DNA of 64,000 nucleotides from Naegleria gruberi (taxonomy: Eukaryota): assembly GCA_000004985.1 (NCBI GenBank), contig GG738902.1, one strand, 5' to 3'. Positions 2,069-61,528 of this stretch are shown piece by piece (the stretch's first letter is position 1; the number at the start of each line of letters is the position of its first letter). Under the pieces are notes generated by a model. The model had not been told where the DNA came from. It did not search any database and worked only from the letters and a program-made list of their open reading frames with translations. Position numbers and translations under genes: made by a program.

Positions 2069-5000
2069 ATGTCGACCACCACTAGGAAGCCATTGCAAGA
2101 CATTTCCAATAAGGTACACCTTGTGAAGTCTACTACTAGCCAATCCACTAGTAGTCAGATGAAGAGTAAAGCTAAGGAAATGATACCTGTAAAACAATCA
2201 AAGAGCTCTAGGATGTTTGATATCAGGGCCAACAATAACAAATACGATACTCCGGAACGTGATAATGATATGGATTATGGTTCTCCAACATCGATTGGTT
2301 CCTTGGAAGAGGAATTTGGGGAATTGTCTGATTTAAGGGAGTTTTATGATGAAGTCTCATCAGACATTAACGAAAAAATTGTAAAGTCTCTTGAAAGAGA
2401 AAAGGAAAAGAATACACGATTAGAGTTACAAAGCGAGAGGGATAGAGCTCAAATTATAGAACTCCAACAAGAAAAGAACAAGCTATCACGCACTATTGAA
2501 CAACTAAAAAAACCTGCAAAGGTTGAAAAGCCAGAAATTGATTTTAATGGGCAAGTTAATCAACTAAATGAAAAGATTTCCAAATTGGAAAAGAAGGTTG
2601 AAATTGAAACTCAACAAAAAGAAAGACTATCTAACTTGTTAAAAACTAAGGAACAAGCACTCTCTAAAATTAAAGAAGAAAACGATAAGGCAGTAACAAA
2701 AGGGCCAATAGAGGAAAAGTGCTCTAGAAAACTCCAAGATCAAATCAAAATCAAGGAAGAAAAGATTGAGCGTATGAGTAAGGAAATTGAAAAGGAAAAG
2801 AACACAAAACAAGAATATGAAAACCTTATTCAAGGGCTTCAAGAAGTTTCAGACAATCTGAGAATGAAATTATCTGCCTCCAACGAAGAAATTGAAACTT
2901 CCAACAAGCTGATCGAGATTTTGGATGCCAAGCTCAAGATTGCCAACGATAGATGTAAGGACTTGGATGAGCGATTGAAAAAAGGAGAAGAAAAGAGAGA
3001 AGAGGAAAGTTCAGAACTGTTAGCACTCAGAGAAGAGATGTCACATTTATGTGATTCAGTGTTGAAGGAAAAGCAGGAATCAGAGAGAAAGACTCAACAA
3101 CTCAATCACATCCAAGCAGCTAAAGAAAAATATGAAAATGAATATACAAGAACTTGCACCAAGCTGAAAGAAAAAGAGGAAGAAACTGAAGAACTCAAAA
3201 AGGTTATTGAAAGGCTTGAACAACAAATCGAACAAATGGGCCACGATATTGATGATTCTTCAAAGGAACTTGAAGAAATCGAGAATAACTTTAGAACAAG
3301 GCTTACTGACGCAGAAGAACAACTTGCTGAAAAAGAGGAAGAAATACAGTCCATGAAAGTGAAGGAAGAAAGAACAATGGAACAATTAAAAGAGCTTGAT
3401 GTATTTGTAGAGAGAACTAAACGAAAGATTGACAAGGAGAAAGAAAAGACCAAAGACTCTGAAGAAAGAGCCAATGCAGAATATGAAAAGGCCCTTCAAA
3501 TGATTGAAAGAAACAATGCTTTGATGAGAAAGTTAGAAGCTGTAACAAGAGCAAACCATTCCTTGGAGGAAGAAGTCAAGGAAAAGGAAGACTTAATGTT
3601 AAGATTCAAGAACTATATCGAAGATGTTGAAAATAAGCTCCACAATAAGGAAGATGAATGTAGTCAAACAGTATCCAGATTAAACTCAACATATGAAGAG
3701 TTACAAAAGGAGAAGGCAAAATCAGACAGATCATGGAAAGAGCTTGAGGAGACTGTCAAAATGCTCCATCAAATCCAAGCTGAGAAGGAAGTTTTGGAAA
3801 AGAAGAGCAGCCACTCAAAGGAAGTATTGGAAATGAAGATGAATAATAAGATTTCCATGTTAGAAAAGAAGTGTGACTACCTCAAACGTTTGCATGAAAT
3901 GAATGGAGCAAGTGAAAGCGATCAAATCAAGGAAATGGAAGGGTACATTGAAAGATTAACAAAGGAAAATGAAAAATCAGGTGAAGCTGTTTCTCAACTA
4001 GAGATTACCCTTTCCGAAAAGGAATCTGAAATTTCAGTCTTGCAAGAAAAGGTAAGACAATTAGAAGATCTCCTCAACAATCAAAATCAATTACATTCAG
4101 CAAATCTTAAACCTAATGATCTCAAGAAGAGACTCATGACTGTTGAAAAATCCATGGATGAAATAATTATTGACCTTTCTATTGAAGGAATAACTTTGAG
4201 TCAACTTAATCCAAGAGAAAAAGCTGTTGTCATTCTAGAAAAGTTTACTGACATCAAGAAGGAGTGTCAATCTTTGGCTAGTATTAAGGATCAATATAGC
4301 GCAGAATTACAAAGACTTCGTGAAGCCAAAGCAAATTCTGAACGCCAAATGATCTCCCTCAGAGATGCTCTAACCAACGAAGTTGTTGAGAGAAACGAAG
4401 GGTGTATTACCGATCTCACTGACAGTTGTACCTTCCTTTACAATACTCTCACAGATGCTATTGAACAAAGAGAACTAGAAGATGCAAATATTCCACTGAG
4501 TTCTGAACTCTTGGATGAATTGTTGGAATCTGTTCTCTCTATTCAAGTTAACTTGAAGAAAGTTAGTAACCATTTGAATCAAGTTGATACTCTTCAACAA
4601 GTGATGGATTCTCAAAATGTATTTAATAAGGACTTTGTTTCTTTATGTGGGGAATTGGAAAACAGAGTAAGATCATTAATAGAAGAAAGAGATACTTTGC
4701 TAACTGCTCAATTCCAATTAAAGGACAAGGAAAAAGGAATCTCGAATGGTGTAAAGAAAAAGCTTGACAAGTTAATGTATAAGAATGTTATGATTCAAAC
4801 AAGTTCACAAACTCAATCTGCAGAGGGTGAAACCCAAACAGTGGAAAGTGGAGTTGGTTGTGAAGCAGAACAAGATCAACCAACCAACGCAGAAAGAGAA
4901 CAAAACACTCACACAGAGCAAGAACATGAGAGCCTTAAGAATAAGTATCAAAAGCTTTTGGCTACCTGTCACAAGTATAAGAAGCTCATGCTTAAATTTA

Positions 5001-5467
5001 CTCAACTCCACACCAAAGAAAAAACCAATGTCAGACAATCCATCCCAAGAGTGACCAATCAATCGAATATTTCACAACAAGATTCTATTCACAATGAAGA
5101 TGAAACTCATCAAGATCAATATGAAGAAGAACAAAATGAGGTGGTTGACCATGATGATTATCAAGACAATTACCAAGATAATTATCAAGAAAATGTTCCA
5201 GTCATTCGTGCCTCTCTTCACCACCCACTTTCATTTGATAAGGAAAATACCACACCAAAATCAACAAGACATAACCAATCAAATGGTGACAGTAGTGATA
5301 ATAGCCCTTCCAATGCCTCTGTTTCATCTGTAAGATCTGTCTCTACAACATTGAGTGTAGCATCTGAAAGAAGTTCCTTCTCTACCATTTCCTCCAAATT
5401 TAGAAAAAATCAAGCTCCAAACTCTTACCTTTCCAGTCATATGTCAGTAAGAAACAGACTCAAATAA
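2069..5467 (+). CDS. Large coiled-coil protein (1132 aa) with an N-terminal destruction box and a Ser-rich acidic tail
   Basis: An uninterrupted ORF with heptad-rich, charged E/K/L/Q content over about 850 aa. A perfect RxxLxxIxN D-box (RKPLQDISN) lies at aa 6-14. The C-terminus carries acidic DYQDNYQ repeats and a Ser-rich tail. Confidence 0.7.
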   Translation: MSTTTRKPLQDISNKVHLVKSTTSQSTSSQMKSKAKEMIPVKQSKSSRMFDIRANNNKYDTPERDNDMDYGSPTSIGSLEEEFGELSDLREFYDEVSSDINEKIVKSLEREKEKNTRLELQSERDRAQIIELQQEKNKLSRTIEQLKKPAKVEKPEIDFNGQVNQLNEKISKLEKKVEIETQQKERLSNLLKTKEQALSKIKEENDKAVTKGPIEEKCSRKLQDQIKIKEEKIERMSKEIEKEKNTKQEYENLIQGLQEVSDNLRMKLSASNEEIETSNKLIEILDAKLKIANDRCKDLDERLKKGEEKREEESSELLALREEMSHLCDSVLKEKQESERKTQQLNHIQAAKEKYENEYTRTCTKLKEKEEETEELKKVIERLEQQIEQMGHDIDDSSKELEEIENNFRTRLTDAEEQLAEKEEEIQSMKVKEERTMEQLKELDVFVERTKRKIDKEKEKTKDSEERANAEYEKALQMIERNNALMRKLEAVTRANHSLEEEVKEKEDLMLRFKNYIEDVENKLHNKEDECSQTVSRLNSTYEELQKEKAKSDRSWKELEETVKMLHQIQAEKEVLEKKSSHSKEVLEMKMNNKISMLEKKCDYLKRLHEMNGASESDQIKEMEGYIERLTKENEKSGEAVSQLEITLSEKESEISVLQEKVRQLEDLLNNQNQLHSANLKPNDLKKRLMTVEKSMDEIIIDLSIEGITLSQLNPREKAVVILEKFTDIKKECQSLASIKDQYSAELQRLREAKANSERQMISLRDALTNEVVERNEGCITDLTDSCTFLYNTLTDAIEQRELEDANIPLSSELLDELLESVLSIQVNLKKVSNHLNQVDTLQQVMDSQNVFNKDFVSLCGELENRVRSLIEERDTLLTAQFQLKDKEKGISNGVKKKLDKLMYKNVMIQTSSQTQSAEGETQTVESGVGCEAEQDQPTNAEREQNTHTEQEHESLKNKYQKLLATCHKYKKLMLKFTQLHTKEKTNVRQSIPRVTNQSNISQQDSIHNEDETHQDQYEEEQNEVVDHDDYQDNYQDNYQENVPVIRASLHHPLSFDKENTTPKSTRHNQSNGDSSDNSPSNASVSSVRSVSTTLSVASERSSFSTISSKFRKNQAPNSYLSSHMSVRNRLK

Positions 5468-13979: not shown

Positions 13980-16679
13980 TTACATAAATTCATCAATATC
14001 AACATTGACAATGGCGATATCCAAAAGATTTTGTCCCTTCTTAGTAGTACTGACATTTAGGTCGTGGAGAACTGGTCTTTCAAACTCATCTGTTGGCACA
14101 CTCTCAATTGAGTGAACAACCTCCATTCCTTTGATCACTTCACCAAACAGGGTATGCTTATTATCCAACCAAGGAGTTGGTACAGTAGTTATAAAGAATT
14201 GAGAGCTGTTTGTTCCTGGTCCTCTGTTGGCCATTGATAACTTTCCAGGTCTGTCGTGTTTGAGACTTGGTGAAAATTCATCCTCAAATTCCTTTCCAAA
14301 TATTGAGGTACCTCCAGTACCATCACGATTATCATTATCACCTGTTTGAATCATAAAGTTCTTAATAACTCTATGGAAAATACAATTATCATAATATCCA
14401 TTCAAAGAAAGTTGAGTAAAGTTTTCCACAGTCTTTGGACAAACATCAGGGAATAATTTAACTTGAATATCTCCAAATGATGTGTGAATGGTGGCAATCT
14501 TGGCAAGTTTTCCAATCTTTTTCTTTCCTCCAAATCCACTAAGAGATGATGCAGATTCTCCAATAGCATTAGCAATTTCCATTTCTTCCTTTGATGGTTT
14601 TTCGTTGAAAATGTCTCTACCAATGCTAGCACTAGCTGTAATGTAGGCAAATCGTTGATGAACAGATCCTGTATGTTCATCATCTTCTGATGGTTCTCTC
14701 TTGCTAAACATGTAAAATCTATTCTTCTTGTAGGCTGAACAGAATAAAGTAGGGTCCAAATAGTCCAATTTAATAATACTGGCCTCGTCGGAGTCACCCA
14801 TTGTAAACATTTGAGAGGAACCATTGGAATTTTTTGAGGCATTATGTTTTGAAAGTTCTGCTCTAGATATTTTAATAATACCTTGGAAGAGCCCAATATT
14901 CATAAATCGTTCAGTACTTTCCACTTTACCCAAAAGTCTATCGACACGATTCGTCCTAATATTTCTAAATTTGATACCAAAGATAGTTGGATAAATTAAA
15001 AATTGTGAGCTATCATCAAAGAGAACATGTGGTGTTGAATGATAATCCTTGAAGAGAGGATTACTAATTGGTTTGGAAGAATGTTTGCTATCAATAACCT
15101 GCTCAATTTCATGTTCAATAGCAACTCTTCTACCAAAATCAAAGTTGTCAGTGGCATACAGTTCCAAATCATTAGTCTCCATTTTGAGTTTTTCTAAAAG
15201 AATCTTAGATTTTTTGATTTCCTCGCTTTGGGTTGGATCTTCAGATGTTGTTGATGCTATATTTTCCAAAGTTTCAATAAAGGCCTTGTTAGTGGCAGCT
15301 TTTTGTAAATTTTCTTGGAGTGGCAAAGATTCATCATAATCTCTCACCATTTTACCAGATAAAAAGTCAAAAACTCTAACATGACCATCTCTACACAAGA
15401 CAACAAACGATTTTCCATCCTTTGAAATATCCAAGCTGATGGCATAGGTTTTTTGTTTGGCCAATTCAAAGAGTGAAGTTTCAGACTTGTACTTGAAAGT
15501 AAAGAGATTAGTTTGCTTTGTAGATAAATATTTGTTTGCTTCCTCAAGTGTTGGGAATTTACCAGTATGTGGATTCCAGTATTCAATCATTCCCTTTTCA
15601 TCACAACTAATCATAGCTCCAAAAACTGAATTGAACTTGCAACAAGTAATCTTAGAACGATGTATCATTATAGATCCAGCAACGTTGTACTTGTAAATTG
15701 GGTCATTGGATGTAGCATCAGGATTACATGGATCATAAAATTCAATAGCTCCATCTTCAAAGAATATTCCTAGTATTTTGTCAGTAGCACTTCCTTGTTT
15801 CTTAGTGATATATTCACATAGATGCAATTCTCTCTTTTGAGTTGGTTCTTCAGGTTTTGTAAAACTAAAAACATTAATCATATCAAAGTTTGTAACATCA
15901 TAAACCTTTAAATCACTTCTAGTCATACTTGCTGCCAATAATCCATCACATGCCATGGTACCATATTTCAAAGGACCCATCACTGAAGTATTATGAGCAG
16001 TAAAATGTTTCACATATTCAATATTATCAATTGTTTTTCTCCAGAATTTAACATGACCATCCTTAGACATGGTAATTATGAAATGAGTAGAACTGTGTGA
16101 ACTACTGGTTGTTACCTTTGATGGTGGAGCTACAAGTACATAACAAATATAATCACGATGCATATAAGACCATTCATACATTAATCCTTCTGGTAATTGT
16201 CCTAAATGTAATTGATCAATTCTCTCTTCCTTTGATAATTTAATTTTAGATCCTAGATTATTATTACTAATTTCCTGTTGTTGAATACTTGATGAGGAGG
16301 CTTCAATACCATCGGAGGAGGAGGAAACAGCTAGTGATGATTGATTATTATTTGTTGTTGTTGTTGGAGGTAATGAAGGAATACTTGGTCCATAACCATC
16401 ATCATCAGATTCCTCTGCTGATGATTTTGTATTACTAGTTGTTGTTGGTTGCATACCTGGAATGGCAGGGCCATAATCATCTTCATCCTCCTCTTCTTCA
16501 TTATTTACTTCTTGATCATCACTCTTTACAGCAGTATTTAATTTAGCAATTTGTTCTTCCAATTGTCTCTTCTTTTTTAATTGTCTTTCAAAGTCATCGT
16601 CCGATTCCGATGATGATAAAGCCGATGATGAGGACGATGAATAACTTGATGAAGAGGACGAAGAATTTCTTCTTTTCAT
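13980..16679 (-). CDS. Peptidyl-prolyl isomerase domain and WD-repeat protein (PPWD1/CYP71-like)
   Basis: An 899-aa ORF. After a Ser/acidic N-terminal extension it carries WD40 repeats, then a C-terminal cyclophilin domain ([13 protein letters not shown]...[34 protein letters not shown]). Confidence 0.85.
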
Positions 16680-46674: not shown

Positions 46675-49600
46675 TTATTGGCTTGTCATTTTGACCACTT
46701 CAGATGTTGGAATTGTCAATGCTTCCATATTGTCGTCGTGATATATTTCAGTAGCATTTTGTACTGGTGGTAAAATAATAGTGCTGTATGGAGGAGGTAA
46801 TATTCCATTACTTACTGGCATATTTCCATATGCTGTAGTGTTGACAGAAGGAGGTTCATAAGAATAATATGCAGTTCTTGGTGGAGATCTTGGAGGACTC
46901 GAAGTAAATGCTGATAATGGTTGAGGATATGGAGTATAGATTGGAGGTGGAGTATTGAGTATTGGTACATCAAACATTTCATACTCATTTCTTCTCTTGT
47001 TGAGAGGAGTATTGGCTTCCTTAGTTGGGAAGAAGACTTCATAGTCAGCAAAGGTATGTGTAGTCTTATTGGTTGAACTAGTTGGACTTCTGTGAACAGA
47101 TTGTTGTTGAGGAGTAGTATAGATTGACTGCTGTTTCTTATTGAGTGGTTTACCACTGGTTGATTTGATTGATTTAGAACTACTACTTGGAGGAGCTTTG
47201 ATGGCACACTTCTTTCTCTTTGGTGCTTGAATGCAAGCAATGAAAAGGAATAAAAAGAACCAAATAGCAAAACCAAGAAGGAATAACCCAAAGGTTGCTG
47301 CAATACATAGATATCTTGCAAGCTCAAATTTGTTTGGAACATAGAGAACCTTTGATCCTTTGCATTGTAAATTACTCCAACCAACAGCACTCAAACCACC
47401 CTCAATGTTTGCCACTTCGAGTGGAGTGGTTGGTTTGTTGGAATTTACGAAAAACTCAGTAATAGGATTAGATGTTGAATGTACATTCAAACACTTGTAA
47501 GTATTTCCAAGTGTGATCATCTCAAAATCAGTATACACTGAATCAGTATAAGTACCAGATTGGACAACACAACAAGCATAGGCAGAATTACTTAATAACA
47601 ATTCGACGTTTGTGTCTTTCATCAAGCTTACTGTTTCAAAGATGGTGATACCTACAACAGATCCAAATCCTCCCAACCATAACACTGCAAGTAGTAAAAG
47701 CATTGTTCCCACTATAAACACAGAGCAATACCTCCTTTTTCTTTCATCCTGACTTTTAACACATCCTCTGCAAACTCTGATGGCAAGAAACATGGGAAGA
47801 GTTGCGAACAGAGCAGGAATGAATGATTCCCACTCCTTTTCATTTTCAATGTTAATCTTCTTTTTCCTGATTGTTTGAATACAGAATACGCAAGTGAAAA
47901 AGAGAGAATACAAGAGAACAATACCAACAATACATCCAGCAGTAATATACGACTCAAAGAAGTAATTTTCAAGGTACACGTTTTCCCCAGATTCTACATT
48001 TTCAGCAGTTCCTCTGAACGAAGCACTTGCAAACGTTTGATCTGTTGGGAATCTTATTAAAATCTTTGAGTATGTTGCAAGTTTGGAAGCATCAACATCC
48101 AAGATGAATTTGAGGGCTTTCAAGGTTGTTTGATGTTGCTTGTAGACATAGTCGTTTCTTGTGGGAGTAATTGTTTCCAACTTGTTTGGATATAACGAAA
48201 TTGCGTATACTGTTGGAGTCGGAACTGAGGTAAATTGTTGACTGAATAATTCAATCAAATACTGTCCAGTGTCTTTGGCATCACTGTAATCCACTTCAAC
48301 AATAGTTCCAGGGTTTACAACAAATTTGGTCAAGTAAGAAGATGATGAGATTGAAGCCTTTGATGGGGTTGTTGTCATTAAATAACTGAACTTGGCTTGA
48401 GAGGAAAAAGAGGAAGAATCGCATGATTGGGGAGAATATGTTTCCAGAGGATGTATGAGCATATAGATAGCCTTATCTTGTAGTTTCAAATATGGAGTGT
48501 TCACAAAAGATGTACCTGAACTAGTCTCAAAGATTATTCCATTTTCGTATCCAATAATGTTGACCTTGTAATTGGTTTGAGATGAAATATCTAGCTTAAT
48601 ATTATAGTTATTAGAGTCTACAGGTTTTCCTACCCCAAGATAAATATTGTACTTCCTACCTGATAACATTAAATTTTGACTGTCCATCAACATTGTAATT
48701 TGGAAATTATTAGAAACAGTATTTACAACCATTCGTTGCGTTACATCTTCTGTTGGAGAAGCATAATATGGTAATTGAATTGTATTATATCCAGGTGAGG
48801 AGAGAGAGAAGGCAAGTTGAGGGGAAGATATGGATTGTACAACATAGTTAACTGTTGTATTTGAAATTGTAAAGGCAGGATCTAATTGAAGGTTAAATTT
48901 CCAAACTCCATTAAGGGATGGCTGAAGCCATGTCGAAATACCAATAGTGTTTGTGAATTCATTCAGACAGTTAACAGTGACAGTCTTAGAAAAAGCAAGA
49001 ACAAATCTCTGAAGAGTTCCTTGTGCGGCTGTTAATTTCAATGTTGGAGGTGTTAAATTGAATTGACCCTGACTTATTACCGGTTGTAAATTCTGAACAG
49101 TTACAAAAGCAAGAAGGTAACTGTCCTCTGTTGGGTTATAGGAGATATAGTAAGGGTAGGATCCTGTTGAAGATTGAGGCAAAGCTTGGCTGTAAACACC
49201 ATCAAGGGGCAGGGAGGGTGGATTTAAGTACATGTTTGGAATTGAAAAGGACAATACTGCAGAACAAGTATCACAATTGTTCTCTACAATCACTATCAAT
49301 GATCCAATAGGAATTTGCTTAAATGAGATTATGTGTGTATAAGTGTTTGAAGCAGAAATGACTTGGTGGGCTTTTGAAACATCGAGAGTGATAGGCATTT
49401 CACCACTTTGGATAATGAATAAATAGTATGGACGAGTGGAGAGTGCAGACGTAGAAATTTCTATATCTTGTGGTGTATTATCCCGAGTGGAGTAGCTTAT
49501 AATTTTTAAGGCATTTACCTCACCATTAACAATTGGTTTAGGAATTGTAAAAGATTGATCAATAGCCATACTCTTAATGCCTTAGTAGTTGAGTTAATTA

Positions 49601-51143
49601 TTTTAACAATTGGCTTATACTTACTCTTTTTCAACATTGTAATAGTACCTGTGGTGTTAGAAACTTTACTATTCGTGATCTTGAAAGTTAGAGATGTTGC
49701 TCCATTCAGTTTAGAATTTAACAATGTTGATGGAATAATAAAGGAAGTGGTTGTGACAGAGATTTGAGGAATCGTTATTGTCTGTAATGTGGCGGAAGAT
49801 GATACAACAATCGTTCCGTTGAAGGTGCTGTTAAAACTAATGTAGGTCTGAATGAAAGCAATCGCTGTGGTAGTGACATACGAAGCAATGATAACTCTCT
49901 TTGAATTATCAACCTTGAATGCTAGTGCTTTTTCATAAACTGAATAATAGGTATTGGGAGAATAAGGATCGACATTGACTGTCGAGTTGCTATTTGTTGT
50001 GGTATTATTATTACTTGCAGTATTGTTGGATGTCTGGGTTGAATTTGTGATTACATTACTAGTAGAATTGACAGACGAATTGGGTATGCCAGTATTATTT
50101 GTTTTAGACAAGTATGTGAGCGAGATTGAGGAGGATTGAACTCTTGAGCTTATCAAAGGATCATAATATTTTCCATTCATACGAGTTGCGTAAGTAACAG
50201 TGGAAGTGGTATTTGTTGTGATATTGCTGTCGTTTCTCCATTTATACATGATGTAAACTTGAATTGATTGACTGGCTTGTAATGTCACATAACTGACATA
50301 AAGACTGGCTGTGTTTGAGCTGCTTATTGGTATGAGAGTATATGATTTGATGGCTGTTTGTACATTTGTTGAATGATTAACCCTAACAAGCTTTACAATT
50401 GAAATATCGAGGTTTGAAATGCTTAGAGATTCGAACTTGATATCCAGATATACGTCTGTTATTGTATCTATACCAGAGTTTTTAATGGTCACAACATTGG
50501 TTGAATTTCTATTTGATTGATTTGATGCAATGACTACCGTTGATGGTTTTGAAGTGATACCCAAATCCACAACAGGTGTTGTTGAAGGAACATAACACAG
50601 ATACAAATACATGGATTGAATTAACAATTCCTCTGGTGTCAATCTCTTCAATGTCAGCTTGTTAGAATAATCTTTCAAATACACATACGAAAGACCAGTA
50701 ACATCCACACTTGATGCTTTCGAAATTCCCAAATTACAAGCATCCTTCGTACCACAATAAACACTGGGATTCAGATAGGGATATTTCATTATATTCAAAT
50801 CATTAATAAGCATTGAATAATTTGCTGAAAAACTCGATGAGGAGGAACATGAAGTAAATCGATAATTAATTTTCGATCCAACCATTCCCTGATAAATCAA
50901 TACTTTCCTACTCGACCCACCAGTATATGAAAATGTTCCATTCAATGAGGTACTTTTCCAACTCTTGTTATAATCATTGCAAACGTAGGAATAATAATTA
51001 TTGGGTGTAAAGAAAACTTCAACATTCTCGCATGTGGGTGAAACATTCTGACCGAAGACTGTAATGTTATTATGTATTACTAGGAAGAATAATACAAGGA
51101 AGACTATTTGATAAGCATTTAAAACTTTTGCAATATTTATCAT
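46675..51143 (-). CDS. Giant Ser/Thr/Asn-rich mucin-like multipass membrane glycoprotein, two exons: complement(join(46675..49580,49625..51143)), about 1474 aa
   Basis: It has an N-terminal signal peptide (MINIAKVLNAYQIVFLVLFFLVIHN). A ~1100-aa ectodomain is packed with N-x-S/T sites and S/T runs. Three to four TM helices follow, then a Pro/Tyr-rich cytoplasmic tail with PPxY-like motifs (PPPIYTPYP, LPPPYSTI). A 44-nt GTAAGT...AG intron at 49581-49624 merges the 542-aa and 964-aa ORFs in frame (TMLKK|SIKSMAIDQ). Confidence 0.65.
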
Positions 51144-51654: not shown

Positions 51655-51897
51655 TTATAAACCAGGGTAACTATCAACAAACTCAACAGTGAAATCAGGA
51701 TAATCCTCAACGATTTGAATCTTGAAATCTGGGTAGCTGTCAACTTCTTCCCAAAGACCAACACTGATTGGATAACTATCAACCATTTGAACTCTGAGAT
51801 CAGGATAACCGTCAACTACTTGTACCTTATAATCAGGGTAGCTATCAACAAATTCAATCTTTCCAAAGATTTTAGCAAGTTCTGATTTAGAAACCAT
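51655..51897 (-). CDS. 80-aa micro-protein made of about 7 tandem decapeptide repeats ([IV]VD[SG]YPD[YLF][KRT]VQ)
   Basis: MVSKSELAKIFGKIEFVDSYPDYKVQVVDGYPDLRVQMVDSYPISVGLWEEVDSYPDFKIQIVEDYPDFTVEFVDSYPGL. The ORF is intact and its period-10 repeat is maintained at protein level with varied codons, which suggests selection on the peptide. Confidence 0.45.
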   Translation of the reverse strand: MVSKSELAKIFGKIEFVDSYPDYKVQVVDGYPDLRVQMVDSYPISVGLWEEVDSYPDFKIQIVEDYPDFTVEFVDSYPGL

Positions 51898-52319: not shown

Positions 52320-55300
52320 TTGAGAAGGATAATAATAATGGCCAGTAGCAGTAATAATAATTGTATTCTCACCACATCGGATGATGGTGACTCTATCTAT
52401 TTTGTCTCATCACGGGATAAGCAACATACACTCAAGCAATTACAAACGAGTACGGAACATTTTCAAAAGAAGGAATACAAAGTAGCCATTGAAATATTGG
52501 AGAAGTGTGTTCAGATACCCTCGGATACATTGATCACTGTTTCAGGGTGTGATTTCAATGATGGAGAATGTATCAAGGGAATAGCTGAACAAGCTGATAA
52601 ACAAATTGTTGAATTAATTGGAAAGATGTTTATCACTAAAGGACTTTGCTATTTTAATTCGACAATTGTTGCTGAGAGTGATGAAAAGAAGGATCTGTAT
52701 TTTACTAAAGCACTGCAAGATTTTGCTGCAGTTGCCAGACACTACAAACTGTACAAACAATTGTATTATTATGATAATCAACAATCACTCTTGCAAGATA
52801 TCGATGGCTTGTATGTATTTGTTACAACTATGAAGTCGTACTTCCTTGAGGGAAGATGTCTTCAACAATTGAGGGGATATCAAGTGGACGGAATTTCATC
52901 TCTGGAGAAGGCAGTCATTGCATTTAGTGAGGCAATTCAAATGGCCGAGTATTTGAAGAGTAATTCATCAGGGGTGGCCAGTGAGAAGGTTTGTCTCTCT
53001 GCTCTCGAACAATTGCCACAATATTATCTCAATAGAGCCCTCTCTCATAATGATATCAATTCTTACAGACCAGCAGAGGCCGATTTTACGAGTTACATCT
53101 CACTGATTGGTAATACTAACGATAAAGAAAGAAAATCTACATTATTCATGATTGCTTATCATAATAGAGGAATTTCACTTTCCTACATGCAAAAGTACGT
53201 GGAGGCAATTGAGGATTTCACAAAATCAATTGAACATTACCAGGAAATTCCACAAAATAGTCCAGACAAGAAACAACAATTTGATAGCTTTTTAGAAACT
53301 CACTCCAAAAGGGCTAAAGCAATTCATAGATTCATTGTGGATCATGTACACGACTGCAGAGATAATAACGACAAAGCAATGATGGACAAGATTTTGAAAC
53401 TCAAAACTCTTGCATGTGAAGATTTTGAATTTGTAAGCAAACACAAGCCTAATAGTGTTTATAATAATCATTTCAACACGAGCCAAATTTTGAATATGGT
53501 GGCAACCATTCTCTCCCCAATATTACCAAAGGAAGTTCAATTTGAGCTTTACTCTCAATCTATTCCACACTTGAGAGAATGCATCAAACAGGGAAATAAC
53601 TACAAGACAAGTTTGGATCTTGCTAAAGCATTGTCAAAAACTGGAACTGGTCAAAATGAAGAAATTCTCGATTTGTATAATAGAGCTGTGAAATTATTGG
53701 ATGTTGAATCAAGCAAAAAAGTTTCTGGAGAGCAGAAGGCAAATATATTCTTTGAGAGAGGAGTTTTGTACAACAAAATGGAAAGAGTAGAACAAGCCAT
53801 TATGGACTTTACTACTTCTATTGATTTACATCAACAGTTTTTGGAAGCTTACTTTAATAGAGCCATTCTTTATTATACTAAAAGTAGAAATACAATTTTA
53901 GCTATTAAGGATTTGGAAAAAGTTATTGAAATCGATCCTAAAGATACCACTGCCTTGATAGAACTGGCAGTTTTATTGGCCTCTAATGGTCAAGTTGAGG
54001 AAGGTACCAAGAGATTGAATCAAACCTTAGAATGTGACCCAAACAATGAAACAGCTCACAAATATTTGAAAATTCTCCAAGAAAATGAATCTCCTCTTCC
54101 CTCCAATGATATTTTCGAGATTAGAGAAGATCATGTCGAGGAAGTGCCTTTCACTATTCGTCAAGTTCAAAGACCCACTTCTGACAACTTTGGATTCAAA
54201 CTCTTCAAAAAGAAGACTAAGGAGGTTGATCCTGAAGAACAACTGAAGCAGTCAGTACCTCCACCAAAAACAAGATCTACCAATTCAATGTTTTTGGACA
54301 ACTCTCTTCCACCAATAACCAGTTCCATTCTAGGAGCTGGAACTAGAGCAGATTTTGATCTTCCACCTCACATTGTAAATTTGGATACAGATCTTGTCTG
54401 GTTACGTCCTTCACAAATAACTGGTGTAACCAAGCCAGCACTTTTTGTCGATGGTTCCAATTATAAGGATGTCATTCAAGGTTCTCTTGGTAATTGTTGG
54501 ATGCTTAGTGCAATGGCCATTGTTGCTTCTCATGATTTTGTAATGAAAAAGGTTGTTGTTGAATCAAAAACAAACTCTGCAATTGGAAAATACACATTTT
54601 GCCTTTTCAAGGAGGGACGGAATAAGGAAATTACTATTGATGACTTGATTCCTTGTGATGTAACTACAAATTCGTATGTGTTCTCCAGATCAGCAGATCC
54701 CAACGAGTTGTGGGTGCCACTGTTGGAGAAGGCTTACGCAGCTCTCTATGGAAATTATTTCTCCTTGAAGGGAGGTCATTTGAAAGATGCTCTCGTTGAT
54801 CTTACTGGTGGTATTTCATTTTCATATGATATTGACCCAAAAAAGATTGAGGAAGTGTGGCAATACCTTTCGTGCCTACCAAAGCAAAACAGCTCAAGTA
54901 GCTCCTTCAAATTGATGGGTGCAAGATCCGAGACATCAGCTTCTGACTATACTGGTATTATCAATTTCCATGCCTATGCTATTTTGGATGCTATAGAGTT
55001 CCCTCCACATTTAACCAATAGTCAGAGAGTAAGATTAATCAAAATGAAAAATCCTTGGGCTAACGGAATTGAATGGAAGGGAGAGTGGTCAGATTATTGC
55101 CCTCGCTGGAGTCCAGAGCTTAGAAAATATGTAGGAAATGACTTTAATTCTCAAGATGGTATTTTTTACATGTCATTGGAATATTTTGTTGTCCAATGGA
55201 ATATGATTGAAGGTGTGGAAATTTTCGTAAATGGAAAATGGAATGAATTCTTAGCGACTGGAAGATTTGATTCAAATATTAGAAGCGATAACAATTGGAT

Positions 55301-55679
55301 GTTAGATGTTTTGGAAGAAACCCAATTCTTTATTGAAAACCCATATGAAAATAATCGTTTGGTAATTTCACTCACTCAGTTGGACACCAGATATGTTCAC
55401 GATTCAAAGGATGATGATTCATGTATTGCAGTTCATTTGATTAGAGTTGATCAGCCATCCCCATCTAGATTGATCAAGATCAACAAGAAGGATATCATAG
55501 TTCAAGGTGATTACAAATACGACAGAGAAATAGTCGTTGATTGTTGTCTTCCATCAGGTTCCTACGTTGCCATACCTCACGAATATTTTACTACCAATTG
55601 TAAAAATACTGAACTGGGAGCATATACCATTAGAATTTTATCAGAAAGTAAGGTAAAGGTCACTACGATCAATCCTTAA
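52320..55679 (+). CDS. TPR-repeat / calpain-family cysteine protease fusion, 1119 aa
   Basis: The N-terminal ~560 aa contain multiple TPR repeats. The C-terminal calpain catalytic core has the Cys site GSLGNCWMLSAMAIVAS, His in INFHAYAILDA and Asn/Trp in MKNPWANGIEWKGEWSD, followed by a domain-III-like beta sandwich. Confidence 0.85.
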   Translation: MRRIIIMASSSNNNCILTTSDDGDSIYFVSSRDKQHTLKQLQTSTEHFQKKEYKVAIEILEKCVQIPSDTLITVSGCDFNDGECIKGIAEQADKQIVELIGKMFITKGLCYFNSTIVAESDEKKDLYFTKALQDFAAVARHYKLYKQLYYYDNQQSLLQDIDGLYVFVTTMKSYFLEGRCLQQLRGYQVDGISSLEKAVIAFSEAIQMAEYLKSNSSGVASEKVCLSALEQLPQYYLNRALSHNDINSYRPAEADFTSYISLIGNTNDKERKSTLFMIAYHNRGISLSYMQKYVEAIEDFTKSIEHYQEIPQNSPDKKQQFDSFLETHSKRAKAIHRFIVDHVHDCRDNNDKAMMDKILKLKTLACEDFEFVSKHKPNSVYNNHFNTSQILNMVATILSPILPKEVQFELYSQSIPHLRECIKQGNNYKTSLDLAKALSKTGTGQNEEILDLYNRAVKLLDVESSKKVSGEQKANIFFERGVLYNKMERVEQAIMDFTTSIDLHQQFLEAYFNRAILYYTKSRNTILAIKDLEKVIEIDPKDTTALIELAVLLASNGQVEEGTKRLNQTLECDPNNETAHKYLKILQENESPLPSNDIFEIREDHVEEVPFTIRQVQRPTSDNFGFKLFKKKTKEVDPEEQLKQSVPPPKTRSTNSMFLDNSLPPITSSILGAGTRADFDLPPHIVNLDTDLVWLRPSQITGVTKPALFVDGSNYKDVIQGSLGNCWMLSAMAIVASHDFVMKKVVVESKTNSAIGKYTFCLFKEGRNKEITIDDLIPCDVTTNSYVFSRSADPNELWVPLLEKAYAALYGNYFSLKGGHLKDALVDLTGGISFSYDIDPKKIEEVWQYLSCLPKQNSSSSSFKLMGARSETSASDYTGIINFHAYAILDAIEFPPHLTNSQRVRLIKMKNPWANGIEWKGEWSDYCPRWSPELRKYVGNDFNSQDGIFYMSLEYFVVQWNMIEGVEIFVNGKWNEFLATGRFDSNIRSDNNWMLDVLEETQFFIENPYENNRLVISLTQLDTRYVHDSKDDDSCIAVHLIRVDQPSPSRLIKINKKDIIVQGDYKYDREIVVDCCLPSGSYVAIPHEYFTTNCKNTELGAYTIRILSESKVKVTTINP

Positions 55680-58987: not shown

Positions 58988-61528
58988 TTAGCAAGATTTG
59001 TTGACTAGTTCAGCAAGAAGTTTTTTCATGTCCTCTCTATTAAAAACATCCAAAGTTACAATTTGAATTTGATTTCTCTTTTCATCATTCGAAACTTGAT
59101 TTAAAAATTGTTTGATAATGTACTTGGTATTCAATTCTAGATATTCATCAGTGACTTGAATTGATTGCTCAGGTTCTTTGAGGTCATCTTCGGTGAGTGG
59201 AATAATTCTCTCAGGAGGGTTGTTGAATTTGAGACAAGAATCAATCATTTCTTGAGTGATTCCTTCCTCAGATTGTTCATGCGTAAGAGATTCCTTAATT
59301 TGCTTTCGTTGACTTTCTAATTGTTGCTCCAATGTAGATAAATTAATGGAAACACTCACACAACGATTGTCTTGGAATCTTCTGGTCTTTCCTGAAGAGG
59401 CTTCAATAGAAACCTCAATGAAACTGCTTTGTCTTGAATGAGATTCATCCAATGATGATGAGCTTTCGTCAGTGACATTTCTTGTTGTTGCTGGCTTAAT
59501 GACTTGATCGGAAAGTTTTGGTTCTTCAAAGGTTTCAACCTTTTCCATACAAACAACTGGAGAATCCACAGAATCTTCGTCTCTCAAATGAGATGGAATT
59601 GGAGATTTCTTTTCTGGAGTGGCAGGAGGTGGAATTTGTGGGCTAACTTGAATAGTTTCCTTCTTTTCTGGCATGGTTGTTGGGTCAATTTTAGATGTTC
59701 TCTTTTGCATAATTTCCTCTGGGAATGGATCAAGACGAACGAAATTTTCTGGAGTTTCAGATAGTAAATTAGAAAGATAGGCATCTGACAAGTCGCAGTA
59801 AACTAATTTTCTCTTGAGTGATTCCTTCTTTGTAAAGACGAGAATGAATGGAACATGTTCCAATTCTGGCATGTTAACAGTTCTGTTGAAAAATTCCAAC
59901 GAATCAATTAATTGATTTTTCAATGTCAACAAATGGTTGTGTTGTAAACTTTGATGACGTGATAGGAAATTAGATGAAGCACTGTCGATGAGTGGCTTGA
60001 ATTTTGGTGATTTCAAAGTCTTTTTCTTGGCTCTTTCCTTTTCCAATAGATCAGTATGTTTCACATTGACACTACTACCAGTTGGTGATGTCAAGGTGGA
60101 AATGAGCTTGTCATTGGATGAGGCATCACTACCACTTTCATAAACTGGTTTTTCAAGAGTCAATACCTTATCTACAAGTGGAGAACCAGGAGTTCTCGAA
60201 TCAGTTATTGAAATTGTGGAGCCGTACAATCCCAAAATATCATCAACTGAATACTGATTGTAACAAGTGAGTGAAACAAAGTACAAAATGGCAACTCCCT
60301 GAGTTTTGATTGGTTTCTTACTGGAAGTAGCATTTTGTTCACTTGAATTGGCGGATGTATTGCTGTCAGTTGTGGTATTGAGTGGAGTAGATGAAGCATT
60401 TACAGATGATGAGCTAGGTGCTGTATTTTCAGATTTCTTCTTCTTCTTCTCTTCCTTTTCCTTATCCTTTCCAGAGGAGGTTGTTGAACTTGTCAATGGT
60501 TGAGATTCTTCATAGAGCTTGGAGAGCAAAATCTTCTTCCACTTTTTTCTATCTGATCTAACACCTGCACTGTCAATCATGTGAAGTGAACGAATGATTG
60601 GTTTTGGTTTTTGAGGGAGTGCATTCTTTTCAGAGTCCTTACTCTTTTTAGAGGAGCTTGTTGATGTGGTTGCATTCTCAGTGGTAGATGTGCTCTTTCT
60701 CTCTGTAATGATTTTAATTTCACTCTCATAGAAACCTCGAGTCATATTCGAAGCTAACAAGTATTCAGTTTCAGATTTCAATTCTGTATCAGAAAATCCC
60801 TTTCTAGCTCTTCTCAATCTTTCTGCTATTTGATTACAATGAGTAATGACATAATTGAAATGTTCGAAATGTTGCCATTGTGGTTGTTTTGGAACTGTAT
60901 TCACATTTCCATTTTTATCCAACACATTTCCTGAAATAATCGATCCCACTTGAGTATTTCCAAACAAGTACAATAATTCTGGTGAAATTTTGTTATAATA
61001 CAAGATGGTGTAAATTTTGTGTAAAATTGTCTCAGTTGCCCACAACATTGAAATTTGTTGCATCATTCCTGCATCACTCCATAACAATTCTGGCTTAACA
61101 ATTGCTTGTTGCAGTAAACACCGAGAAGCATCTCCCTGTTCTCCACCATTCTCATTCTCACCTGCCCCTGCCTCATTCGAGCACTGTTCCACGATTGAAA
61201 TTTTTACAATTTTCAACAATTTTTCATCAATTAAATTTTTTGATGATGGAAATCGATAATCAATTTCGTTGAAAATTTTCTTCTTGACACAAATAATGAA
61301 CAATAACCATGAGAACATGCTGCTGAGTAATTCTTCGTGGAATTTTAGTGAATTTTTGGACATGCTGCCACCCAATAGGAGATTGGACATTTTGCAGAAG
61401 GATGTCTTTCCCGAATTGCTTACACCCATAAGGAGAAGGTGATGGAGTTGTTGTTGTTGTTGCTGTTGTTGGAGATTATAGTCGAAGGGTTGATCTTCGT
61501 CTCCGTGCCGACTCATTTGTTGTCCCAT
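58988..61528 (-). CDS. Highly divergent heterotrimeric G-protein alpha-subunit-like protein (846 aa) with degenerate catalytic motifs and large Ser/Lys-rich insertions
   Basis: Features map onto G-alpha as follows:
- An MGQQMS N-myristoylation-type start.
- G1: HLLLMGVSNSGKTSFCKM, versus KLLLLGAGESGKSTIVKQM.
- G3 / switch II: MIDSAGVRSDRKKWKKIL, versus FDVGGQRSERKKWIHCF.
- G4: FILVFTKKESL, versus IILFLNKKDL.
A helical-domain-sized segment separates G1 from G3. Confidence 0.5.
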   Translation of the reverse strand: MGQQMSRHGDEDQPFDYNLQQQQQQQQLHHLLLMGVSNSGKTSFCKMSNLLLGGSMSKNSLKFHEELLSSMFSWLLFIICVKKKIFNEIDYRFPSSKNLIDEKLLKIVKISIVEQCSNEAGAGENENGGEQGDASRCLLQQAIVKPELLWSDAGMMQQISMLWATETILHKIYTILYYNKISPELLYLFGNTQVGSIISGNVLDKNGNVNTVPKQPQWQHFEHFNYVITHCNQIAERLRRARKGFSDTELKSETEYLLASNMTRGFYESEIKIITERKSTSTTENATTSTSSSKKSKDSEKNALPQKPKPIIRSLHMIDSAGVRSDRKKWKKILLSKLYEESQPLTSSTTSSGKDKEKEEKKKKKSENTAPSSSSVNASSTPLNTTTDSNTSANSSEQNATSSKKPIKTQGVAILYFVSLTCYNQYSVDDILGLYGSTISITDSRTPGSPLVDKVLTLEKPVYESGSDASSNDKLISTLTSPTGSSVNVKHTDLLEKERAKKKTLKSPKFKPLIDSASSNFLSRHQSLQHNHLLTLKNQLIDSLEFFNRTVNMPELEHVPFILVFTKKESLKRKLVYCDLSDAYLSNLLSETPENFVRLDPFPEEIMQKRTSKIDPTTMPEKKETIQVSPQIPPPATPEKKSPIPSHLRDEDSVDSPVVCMEKVETFEEPKLSDQVIKPATTRNVTDESSSSLDESHSRQSSFIEVSIEASSGKTRRFQDNRCVSVSINLSTLEQQLESQRKQIKESLTHEQSEEGITQEMIDSCLKFNNPPERIIPLTEDDLKEPEQSIQVTDEYLELNTKYIIKQFLNQVSNDEKRNQIQIVTLDVFNREDMKKLLAELVNKSC

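What the first reader, a model, noticed from the sequence alone, without database searches (positions are those of the whole stretch)
52320..55679. TPR-repeat array fused to a complete calpain protease core
Classical calpains pair the CysPc core with C2-like, penta-EF-hand, MIT or zinc-finger modules. Here roughly 560 aa of TPR repeats precede an apparently active CysPc (the Cys, His and Asn triad residues are all present) plus a domain-III-like sandwich. A TPR scaffold suggests recruitment of the protease by partner proteins rather than by Ca2+/EF-hand regulation.
Basis: partly seen in the sequence, partly recalled or inferred. Interest (0 to 1): 0.5.

Follow-up and report, generated by a model that had tools for sequence, protein, structure and literature searches.

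The report
Known Naegleria TPR-calpain protease gene
This is a real, intact gene of the amoeba Naegleria gruberi that joins a TPR protein-binding scaffold to a calpain protease, but this exact protein and its domain layout were already listed in published calpain surveys, so it is a confirmed catalogue entry and not a discovery.

Summary
Window 52338-55679 (+) is one uninterrupted 1113-codon ORF. It encodes an all-helical TPR-like N-terminal region (residues ~28-583), a disordered linker, a calpain CysPc core and a C2-like (domain III) beta-sandwich. The core keeps Cys720, His878 and Asn905. There is no EF-hand module.

The protein is 100% identical to Naegleria gruberi XP_002671835 / D2VVS6. 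That accession is already listed as "TRP[sic]-CysPc-C2L, 1113 aa, C,H,N" in Zhao et al. 2012, and as "TPR 1 ~ TPR 11 ~ pC2 ~ Calpain III" in Rawlings 2015.

- The fusion is not a gene-model artefact.
- It is conserved full length in N. fowleri, N. lovaniensis and Willaertia magna, in a second N. gruberi paralog, and in two environmental contigs.
- These seven proteins form one clade (96/100 bootstrap).
- Only four TPR motifs are detectable by sequence, not 560 aa of them.
- All five acidic Ca2+ ligands of the calpain core are invariant in the clade, so Ca2+ control is not excluded. The Arg104-Glu333 switch pair is replaced.
- The TPRs lack the Hsp70/90 carboxylate clamp.

No functional study was found. 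Interest is low and the novelty class is "already known".

The parts
52338..55679 (+). Complete single-exon CDS (1113 aa plus TAA) of Naegleria gruberi XP_002671835 / D2VVS6 / NAEGRDRAFT_52656, a TPR-CysPc-C2L non-classical calpain
   Evidence: ORF. ATG and stop checked. 100% identity and 100% coverage to P0001, with accessions.
52419..54086 (+). N-terminal all-helical, TPR-like superhelical region (residues 28-583, 25 predicted helices)
   Evidence: AF2 secondary structure, with pLDDT above 80 only for residues ~250-583. Foldseek top hits are SPY, OGT, CTPR and APC/C TPR superhelices.
53154..53240 (+). Isolated canonical TPR motif (residues 273-301)
   Evidence: Pfam TPR_1 and TPR_2 best stretch. 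AYHNRG is invariant in the orthologs.
53733..54068 (+). Three tandem canonical TPR motifs plus capping helix (residues 466-577)
   Evidence: Pfam TPR_1/2/8/11/17/19 above cutoff. PDB sequence hits to CTPR, SPAG1, SGTA, NlpI and Tom70.
54087..54287 (+). Disordered linker (residues 584-650) containing a conserved short motif (TSD..LFKxK..E.DP.E, residues 614-634)
   Evidence: pLDDT about 20-25 with no secondary structure. Invariant residues T614, S615, D616, L622, F623, K624, K626, E629, D631, P632 and E634 among the three Naegleria orthologs. The motif is also recognisable in environmental contig L002.
54291..55211 (+). Calpain protease core CysPc (residues 652-958; PC1 + PC2) with Gln714, Cys720, His878, Asn905 and Trp907
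   Evidence: Pfam Peptidase_C2, E = 5e-69. PDB calpain-1 core, E = 6e-42. Residue mapping, codons, AF2 and Foldseek.
55242..55673 (+). C2-like / calpain domain III beta-sandwich (residues 969-1112)
   Evidence: Pfam Calpain_III is borderline here (21.2 against 21) but clearer in the orthologs (25.5-31.8 bits). The AF2 model shows eight strands with high confidence. Foldseek aligns the model across the core plus domain III of 3bow_A and to 2qfe.

Best explanation
**What it is.** It is the single-exon Naegleria gruberi gene for a non-classical calpain with the architecture TPR-like superhelix, disordered linker, CysPc protease core and C2-like domain. There is no penta-EF-hand domain, so no small-subunit pairing is expected.

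**Most likely mechanism.**
- The protease core is a working papain-like Cys/His/Asn endopeptidase.
- As in other calpains, it is held misaligned until Ca2+ binds the two intrinsic core sites. This is inferred from the retained ligands.
- The N-terminal TPR superhelix serves as the protein-protein interaction module that selects substrates, partners or a cellular location. This is analogous to the MIT domains of calpain-7/PalB, which bind ESCRT-III.

**Shown:** gene integrity, domain identity, triad and ligand conservation, conservation of the fusion in Vahlkampfiidae, and a single origin of the fusion.

**Inferred:** catalytic activity, Ca2+ dependence, and the recruiting role of the TPRs.
For: **Gene integrity.**
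- One uninterrupted ORF identical to the annotated 1113-aa protein.

**Domain identity.**
- Peptidase_C2 at 232.9 bits, with TPR families above cutoff.
- The triad plus oxyanion Gln and Trp align to calpain-1.
- The C-half model (pLDDT 89.7) superposes on m-calpain core plus domain III.

**Ca2+ sites.** The ligand list for 1KXR (VGDE / EDMDE) comes from PMC4057710 Table 3. Here the pattern is VGDE / EDSDI, and positions 329 and 333 are backbone ligands in that paper's figure legend. The triad and the five acidic ligands are invariant in all seven TPR-calpains.

**Conservation of the fusion.**
- Full-length collinear orthologs in N. fowleri (1139 aa), N. lovaniensis (1145 aa) and Willaertia magna (1150 aa), all with TPR + C2 + Calpain_III.
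- The paralog D2V3V2 aligns end to end.
- Two metagenome contigs carry the same order of parts.
- The clade is monophyletic in 96 of 100 NJ bootstraps.

**TPR region.** It resembles the peptide-binding superhelices of OGT and SPY.

**Prior listing.** Published in Zhao 2012 and Rawlings 2015.
Against: - There is no biochemical, expression or localisation data for this protein in the searched literature.
- Arg104 and Glu333 form the inter-site salt bridge of the Ca2+ switch in calpain-1 (my recollection of Moldoveanu et al. 2002). They are replaced here by Tyr709 and Ile942, and by hydrophobic or Asn residues throughout the clade. Ca2+ coupling may therefore differ or be weaker.
- Only four TPRs are sequence-detectable. 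The model of residues 1-250 has low confidence.
- No partner can be named.
Confidence: 0.6

Rival explanations
1. Ca2+-independent, partner-activated protease. Binding of a partner to the TPR scaffold, and not Ca2+, switches the core on.
For: - No EF-hand/PEF module.
- The Arg104-Glu333 pair is replaced in all clade members.
Against: - All five acidic side-chain ligands of both core Ca2+ sites are invariant across seven diverged sequences, some only about 30% identical. That is hard to explain without selection for metal binding.
- Isolated calpain cores without PEF are known to be Ca2+-dependent, as in the Ca2+-bound core structure 1KXR.
Confidence: 0.2
2. Autoinhibitory scaffold. The TPR superhelix, or the conserved linker motif docked in its groove or in the active-site cleft, keeps the protease off until the linker is autolysed or displaced.
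For: - A disordered ~65-residue linker carries a conserved short motif (TSD..LFKxK..DP.E) between the TPR and the core.
- TPR grooves bind extended peptides, as in the OGT and SPY matches.
Against: - No confident inter-domain contact could be modelled. The full-length model has pTM 0.39.
- The motif is weaker in Willaertia and in the paralog.
Confidence: 0.15
3. Gene-model or assembly artefact. Two neighbouring genes (a TPR protein and a calpain) have been wrongly merged. Rawlings 2015 raised this as a possibility for such rare domain combinations.
For: - The caveat in Rawlings 2015.
- In an N. fowleri read assembly, the ortholog is called as two genes of 582 aa and 575 aa.
Against: - In this window, both halves lie in one stop-free frame with no splicing needed.
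- The N. fowleri split is caused by a 61-nt GT..AG intron that changes frame. It lies inside the last TPRs (between residues 563 and 564), not at the domain boundary.
- The same order of parts occurs in four species, one paralog and two metagenome contigs.
Confidence: 0.01
4. Catalytically dead pseudo-protease used purely as a scaffold.
For: Many protist calpains lack triad residues, as shown in the Zhao 2012 table.
Against: Cys, His, Asn, the oxyanion Gln and the Trp are all present and invariant in the clade.
Confidence: 0.04

Closest known systems
TPR-CysPc-C2L calpain variant of Naegleria gruberi, as catalogued by Zhao et al. 2012 (BMC Evol Biol 12:193, Additional file 1) and Rawlings 2015 (Biol Direct 10:66)
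   Same: It is the same protein. XP_002671835 / D2VVS6, 1113 aa, is listed with Cys, His and Asn present and with the architecture TPR ~ pC2 ~ Calpain III.
   Different: Nothing differs in sequence. The surveys gave no orthologs, no check of gene integrity, no analysis of Ca2+ sites and no function.
N. gruberi paralog D2V3V2 (XP_002681002, 1037 aa)
   Same: It has the same order of parts and aligns end to end (32% identity over 1036 columns). The triad and Ca2+ ligands are kept, and it belongs to the same clade.
   Different: It is shorter. Calpain_III is not detected by Pfam, and the linker motif is not conserved.
Calpain-7 / PalB (MIT-MIT-CysPc-C2L-C2L)
   Same: It is a non-classical calpain without PEF. 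It has an N-terminal all-helical protein-interaction module followed by CysPc and a C2-like domain. The C2-like domain of this protein matches the calpain-7 distal C2L structure 2qfe.
   Different: There is no significant MIT match here (E = 0.26), and there is one C2L, not two. The CysPc does not group with the MIT-calpain in the NJ tree.
Classical calpains 1/2 (anchor helix-CysPc-C2L-PEF plus small subunit)
   Same: The core plus domain III superposes (3bow_A, TMq 0.77). The triad and all acidic core Ca2+ ligands are conserved.
   Different: There is no PEF domain and so no small-subunit dimerisation. Arg104 and Glu333 are replaced, and sequence identity is about 24-30%.
Ectocarpus TPR-C2-TML-CysPc calpain (Zhao et al. 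2012)
   Same: It is another calpain with N-terminal TPRs.
   Different: It is a membrane-anchored DEK1-like TML calpain in a stramenopile. It was not recovered among proteins matching both halves of this query, so it is presumably an independent fusion.

Membership tests
Calpain family (MEROPS C2 / Pfam Peptidase_C2) | CysPc domain match above the curated threshold | tested here: met
   232.9 bits against a cutoff of 23.8, covering profile positions 1-294 of 297. PDB calpain-1 core, E = 6e-42.
Calpain family (MEROPS C2 / Pfam Peptidase_C2) | Catalytic Cys, His and Asn at the aligned positions | tested here: met
   C720, H878 and N905 align to C115, H272 and N296. They are invariant in seven clade members.
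Calpain family (MEROPS C2 / Pfam Peptidase_C2) | Two-subdomain (PC1/PC2) papain-like fold | tested here: met
   AF2 model with pLDDT 89.7. Foldseek matches to calpain cores have TMt 0.8-0.87. This is a predicted structure, not a solved one.
Calpain family (MEROPS C2 / Pfam Peptidase_C2) | Ca2+-dependent proteolytic activity | not testable with these tools
   Only ligand conservation could be checked. The pattern is VGDE / EDSDI against VGDE / EDMDE in calpain-1.
Classical calpains (CysPc-C2L-PEF) | C-terminal penta-EF-hand domain | tested here: not met
   No EF-hand family appears in Pfam at E <= 1. The protein ends at the last strand of the C2-like sandwich.
Classical calpains (CysPc-C2L-PEF) | C2-like / domain III after the core | tested here: met
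   Calpain_III at 21.2 bits against a cutoff of 21. Structural match to 3bow_A across domain III and to 2qfe.
TPR repeat proteins | Tandem 34-residue TPR motifs above the Pfam threshold | tested here: met
   TPR_1 at 56.5 bits against 27.8, with three stretches. Motifs lie at 273-301, 466-499, 501-534 and 537-575.
TPR repeat proteins | The whole ~560-aa N-terminal region consists of TPRs | tested here: inconclusive
   Pfam gives no significant TPR signal in residues 1-270 or 300-460. The AF2 model is all-helical and matches TPR superhelices over 350-680 columns, but confidence is low for residues 1-250.
Hsp70/Hsp90 EEVD-binding (carboxylate-clamp) TPR domains | Clamp residues equivalent to HOP TPR1 K8, N12, N43, K73 and R77 | tested here: not met
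K73 aligns to T and R77 to E. By manual register, K8 and N12 correspond to F and V.
Calpain-7 / PalB subfamily | N-terminal MIT domain(s) and two C2-like domains | tested here: not met
   MIT scores E = 0.26 and 11.8 bits against a cutoff of 30. There is a single C-terminal sandwich.
Published 'TPR-CysPc-C2L' calpain variant (Zhao 2012) | The accession itself is listed with that architecture | tested here: met
   The entry reads XP_002671835, D2VVS6, TRP-CysPc-C2L, 1113, C,H,N. Identity of the window protein to that accession is shown.

The most novel reading that the evidence does not exclude
The TPR-calpains of Vahlkampfiidae might work as coincidence detectors, which would be a regulatory logic not described for any calpain. 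The conserved linker motif (or a partner peptide) would occupy the TPR groove and gate the active site, so that cleavage needs both Ca2+ at the retained core sites and ligand exchange on the TPR superhelix. The clade-wide replacement of the Arg104-Glu333 switch pair by hydrophobic residues would reflect this rewiring.
Probability: 0.1. Interest if true: 0.4.

Novelty: already known. Interest (0 to 1): 0.12.

Why it matters
It matters little beyond bookkeeping. The architecture is one of 41 calpain domain arrangements already catalogued for protists, and this accession is named in two papers.

The modest additions are these:
- The fusion is real at the DNA level, which answers Rawlings' caveat about gene models.
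- It is conserved across Naegleria (including the pathogen N. fowleri) and Willaertia.
- It arose once.
- It keeps the intrinsic Ca2+ ligands.

If someone wanted to study how non-EF-hand calpains are targeted, this lineage-restricted protease in a tractable amoeba, with an ortholog in N. fowleri, would be a reasonable but not unique model.

Tried and rejected
- **Exact look-up of the protein in the contig index:** nothing on record.
- **Full-length word-index homology search:** swamped by generic TPR proteins. The calpain half had to be searched separately, and an exhaustive HMMER search was run.
- **Full-length AF2 with a 3-sequence alignment:** unusable model for the calpain half and for residues 1-250. 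This was solved for the C-half with a 56-sequence alignment.
- **Co-chaperone-type (EEVD clamp) TPR:** considered and rejected.
- **MIT-like N-terminus:** rejected (E = 0.26).
- **Other calpains with long N-terminal extensions among the top hits:** they carry Cofilin_ADF, EF-hands or a second CysPc, not TPRs. One Pfam call failed on the residue limit.
- **Functional literature:** only generic mentions of 'calpain family' proteins in N. fowleri extracellular vesicles, with no accession in the held supplements.
- **Neighbouring ORFs:** no Pfam families, so no operon-like context is expected or found in this eukaryote. No tRNAs.
- **Coordinate error:**, I gave minus-strand ORF coordinates shifted by three bases, so the start codon was dropped and the stop codon kept. 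This is harmless for the profile scans. It invalidates the exact look-up, which was the last one allowed.
- **First NJ/bootstrap script:** timed out and was rerun with numpy distances.
- **Environmental contigs L002 and L003:** their taxon was not determined.
Full report
**Observation.** Window 52320-55679 (+) is listed as a 1119-codon ORF starting at a TTG. The first ATG is at 52338, and from there the frame runs 1113 codons to TAA at 55677-55679 without a stop. At the window's composition (33.7% G+C, 7.4% stop probability per codon), a stop-free run of this length has a probability of about 5e-38 per start position. It is therefore a real coding sequence.

**Domains.**
- Pfam finds Peptidase_C2 at residues 652-958 (E = 5e-69, 232.9 bits against a cutoff of 23.8).
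- Many TPR families score above threshold.
- Calpain_III matches residues 1003-1083 at the borderline (21.2 bits against 21).
- The PDB sequence search gives the calpain-1 protease core at E = 6e-42.
- Mapping that alignment puts Cys720, His878 and Asn905 on Cys115, His272 and Asn296. The oxyanion Gln (Q714) and Trp298 (W907) are also in place, and the codons were checked.

**Identity of the sequence.** The protein is 100% identical over 100% of its length to 'predicted protein [Naegleria gruberi]'. Its accessions are EFC39091.1 / XP_002671835.1 / UniRef100_D2VVS6, locus NAEGRDRAFT_52656. The window is therefore Naegleria gruberi nuclear DNA. That fits the ~34% G+C and the dense, mostly intron-free ORFs.

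**Prior knowledge.** Two published surveys already list this protein.
- Zhao et al. 2012 (PMC3563603) report 41 calpain domain arrangements in eukaryotes, including TPR + CysPc. Their Additional file 1 contains the line 'XP_002671835 D2VVS6 TRP-CysPc-C2L 1113 C,H,N', and the paralog 'XP_002681002 D2V3V2 TRP-CysPc-C2L 1037 C,H,N'.
- Rawlings 2015 (PMC4631099) lists 'D2VVS6_NAEGR ... TPR 1 ~ TPR 11 ~ pC2 ~ Calpain III'. The paper states that Naegleria homologues possess TPR domains involved in protein-protein interaction. It warns that such rare combinations might be errors of gene assembly.
- No paper in the held library mentions the locus tag or accession otherwise, and none characterises a Naegleria calpain functionally.

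**Is the fusion real?** Yes, on four lines of evidence.
1. Here, both halves are in one frame with no splice needed.
2. Full-length collinear orthologs exist in N. fowleri (P0162, 1139 aa, about 48-51% identity), N. lovaniensis (P0002, 1145 aa) and Willaertia magna (P0163 = KAL9645185, 1150 aa, 37-40%). All have TPR + Peptidase_C2 + Calpain_III in Pfam.
3. The N. gruberi paralog D2V3V2 aligns end to end with this protein, including the N-terminal region (32% over 1036 columns).
4. Two metagenome contigs (L002, JGI 3300002220; L003, ENA ERZ27315067) carry a TPR half immediately followed on the same strand by the calpain half.

The only hint of 'two genes' is an N. fowleri read assembly in which a prokaryote-style gene caller produced a 582-aa TPR protein and a 575-aa calpain four bases apart. 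Aligning the annotated N. fowleri protein to that contig shows a 61-nt GT..AG intron that shifts the frame. The intron lies between residues 563 and 564, inside the last TPRs and not at the domain boundary. The upstream neighbour (window 49515-51143, minus strand) is homologous to the upstream neighbour in N. fowleri, which supports orthology.

**Distribution and origin.** An exhaustive HMMER search of 1.84 billion representative proteins gave 40,095 hits at E <= 1e-3, mostly generic TPR proteins or calpains. I re-scored all proteins fetched up to that point against the N-half (residues 1-585) and the C-half (residues 641-1113) separately. Only the query, the two Naegleria orthologs and the Willaertia protein match both halves. 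The paralog D2V3V2 was fetched afterwards and was shown to match both halves by its end-to-end alignment. Calpains with long N-terminal extensions among the top hits carry Cofilin_ADF, EF-hands or a second CysPc instead. A neighbour-joining tree of the CysPc core (51 sequences, 263 columns) groups the seven TPR-calpains in 96 of 100 bootstrap replicates. This indicates a single fusion event in the Naegleria/Willaertia lineage, followed by duplication. The tree is distance-based and the outgroup sampling is opportunistic, so the deeper placement is not reliable.

**Anatomy of the N-terminal region.** Scanning five overlapping segments shows significant TPR signal only at residues 273-301 and 466-577 (three tandem repeats plus a capping helix). 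Nothing significant is found in residues 1-270 or 300-460. The full-length AF2 model, built from a 3-sequence alignment, has mean pLDDT 47. It predicts 25 helices between residues 28 and 582 and is confident (pLDDT about 80-94) for residues 250-583. The linker 584-650 is disordered. Foldseek against the PDB returns only long TPR superhelices (SPINDLY, OGT, 8- and 16-repeat consensus TPRs, APC/C subunits, Ctr9, Ski3), with 350-680 aligned columns. The three-repeat module is not of the Hsp70/Hsp90 EEVD-binding type. In an alignment with HOP TPR1 (sequence from my memory, with numbering consistent with the published clamp K8/N12/N43/K73/R77), only N43 is retained.

**Anatomy of the C-terminal half.** With a 56-sequence alignment, AF2 gives pLDDT 89.7 and pTM 0.91. 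The model matches the m-calpain large subunit over about 500 columns that cover the protease core and domain III (3bow_A, E = 6e-37, TMq 0.77). It matches isolated calpain cores with TMt 0.8-0.87, and the calpain-7 distal C2-like domain 2qfe. The protein ends with the sandwich, so there is no PEF domain.

**Calcium.** The ligand list for the Ca2+-bound calpain-1 core (1KXR) is Val99, Gly101, Asp106, Glu185 and Glu302, Asp309, Met329, Asp331, Glu333. In that paper's figure legend, positions 99, 101, 329 and 333 contribute backbone atoms (PMC4057710). The equivalent residues here are V704, G706, D711, E790 and E912, D919, S938, D940, I942. All five acidic side-chain ligands are invariant in the seven TPR-calpains. 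In contrast, Arg104 and Glu333 form an inter-site salt bridge in calpain-1 (my recollection of Moldoveanu et al. 2002, not verified here). They are replaced by Tyr/Phe/Ile/Asn and Ile/Val respectively. Intrinsic Ca2+ activation of the core is the more likely default, possibly with altered coupling.

**Mechanism.** The best-supported reading (identity about 0.95, mechanism about 0.5) is a cytosolic non-classical calpain. Its core is switched on by Ca2+ at the two retained core sites, and its TPR superhelix recruits substrates or partners or fixes its location, by analogy with the MIT domains of calpain-7/PalB. The rivals are partner-only activation without Ca2+, autoinhibition by the TPR and linker (a conserved TSD..LFKxK..DP.E motif sits in the disordered linker), a merged gene model (refuted), and a dead protease (unlikely).

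**Verdict.** The feature is real and correctly described in outline, but it is already catalogued, and nothing found here is surprising for a specialist. The novelty class is 'already known' and interest is low.

Noticed in passing
window 51658-51897 (-): An 80-aa ORF sits about 440 bp upstream of the calpain gene and is divergently oriented. It is made of six ~11-12-residue repeats of (V/I)(D/E)xYPD(F/Y/L)(K/R)(V/I)Q. It has 13 homologs at 43-67% identity, all 64-139 aa. All come from metagenome or read-assembly contigs, and all carry the precomputed Pfam family PF19647 (I recall this as DUF6150, unverified). The local Pfam copy has no matching model. The ORF is absent from the syntenic N. 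fowleri locus. It may be a bacterial-type small repeat protein in the Naegleria genome.
   Followed up: partly
L001 3937-3997 (N. fowleri read assembly SRR29240419): The N. fowleri ortholog has a 61-nt GT..AG intron inside the last TPRs. N. gruberi lacks it. A prokaryote-style gene caller therefore splits the gene into a 582-aa 'TPR protein' and a 575-aa 'calpain'. The metagenome contigs L002 and L003 show a similar frame switch near query residue ~540.
   Followed up: yes
window 54177-54239 (+), protein residues 614-634: A short conserved motif (TSD-x5-LFKxK-x2-E-x-DPxE) lies inside the otherwise disordered and variable linker between the TPR region and the protease core. It is invariant in the three Naegleria orthologs and recognisable in environmental contig L002. 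Its function is unknown; it could be a docking, autolysis or localisation signal.
   Followed up: partly
related proteins P0194 (Stenamoeba stenopodia transcript, 1205 aa) and P0189 (read assembly, 1171 aa): These calpains have an N-terminal Cofilin/ADF actin-binding domain, then about 450 residues, then Peptidase_C2 and two Calpain_III matches. The main texts of Zhao 2012 and Rawlings 2015 contain neither 'cofilin' nor (Zhao) 'ADF' or 'actin'.
   Followed up: no
window 2069-5467 (+): A 1132-aa ORF with no Pfam match. The strong A-over-T skew of the 2-4 kb bin (AT skew 0.36) is explained by an E/K/Q-rich, coiled-coil-like protein encoded on the plus strand.
   Followed up: partly
window 58988-61528 (-): An 846-aa ORF with an N-terminal MG...GVSNSGKTS P-loop. 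It gives only partial G-alpha Pfam matches (53.7 bits, two stretches) separated by long Ser/Thr/Lys-rich low-complexity inserts. It looks like an unusually expanded G-protein alpha subunit.
   Followed up: no
window 13980-16679 (-): An 899-aa ORF combining WD40 beta-propeller matches with a C-terminal cyclophilin-type peptidyl-prolyl isomerase domain. This looks like a PPWD1-like architecture, which is my own attribution.
   Followed up: no
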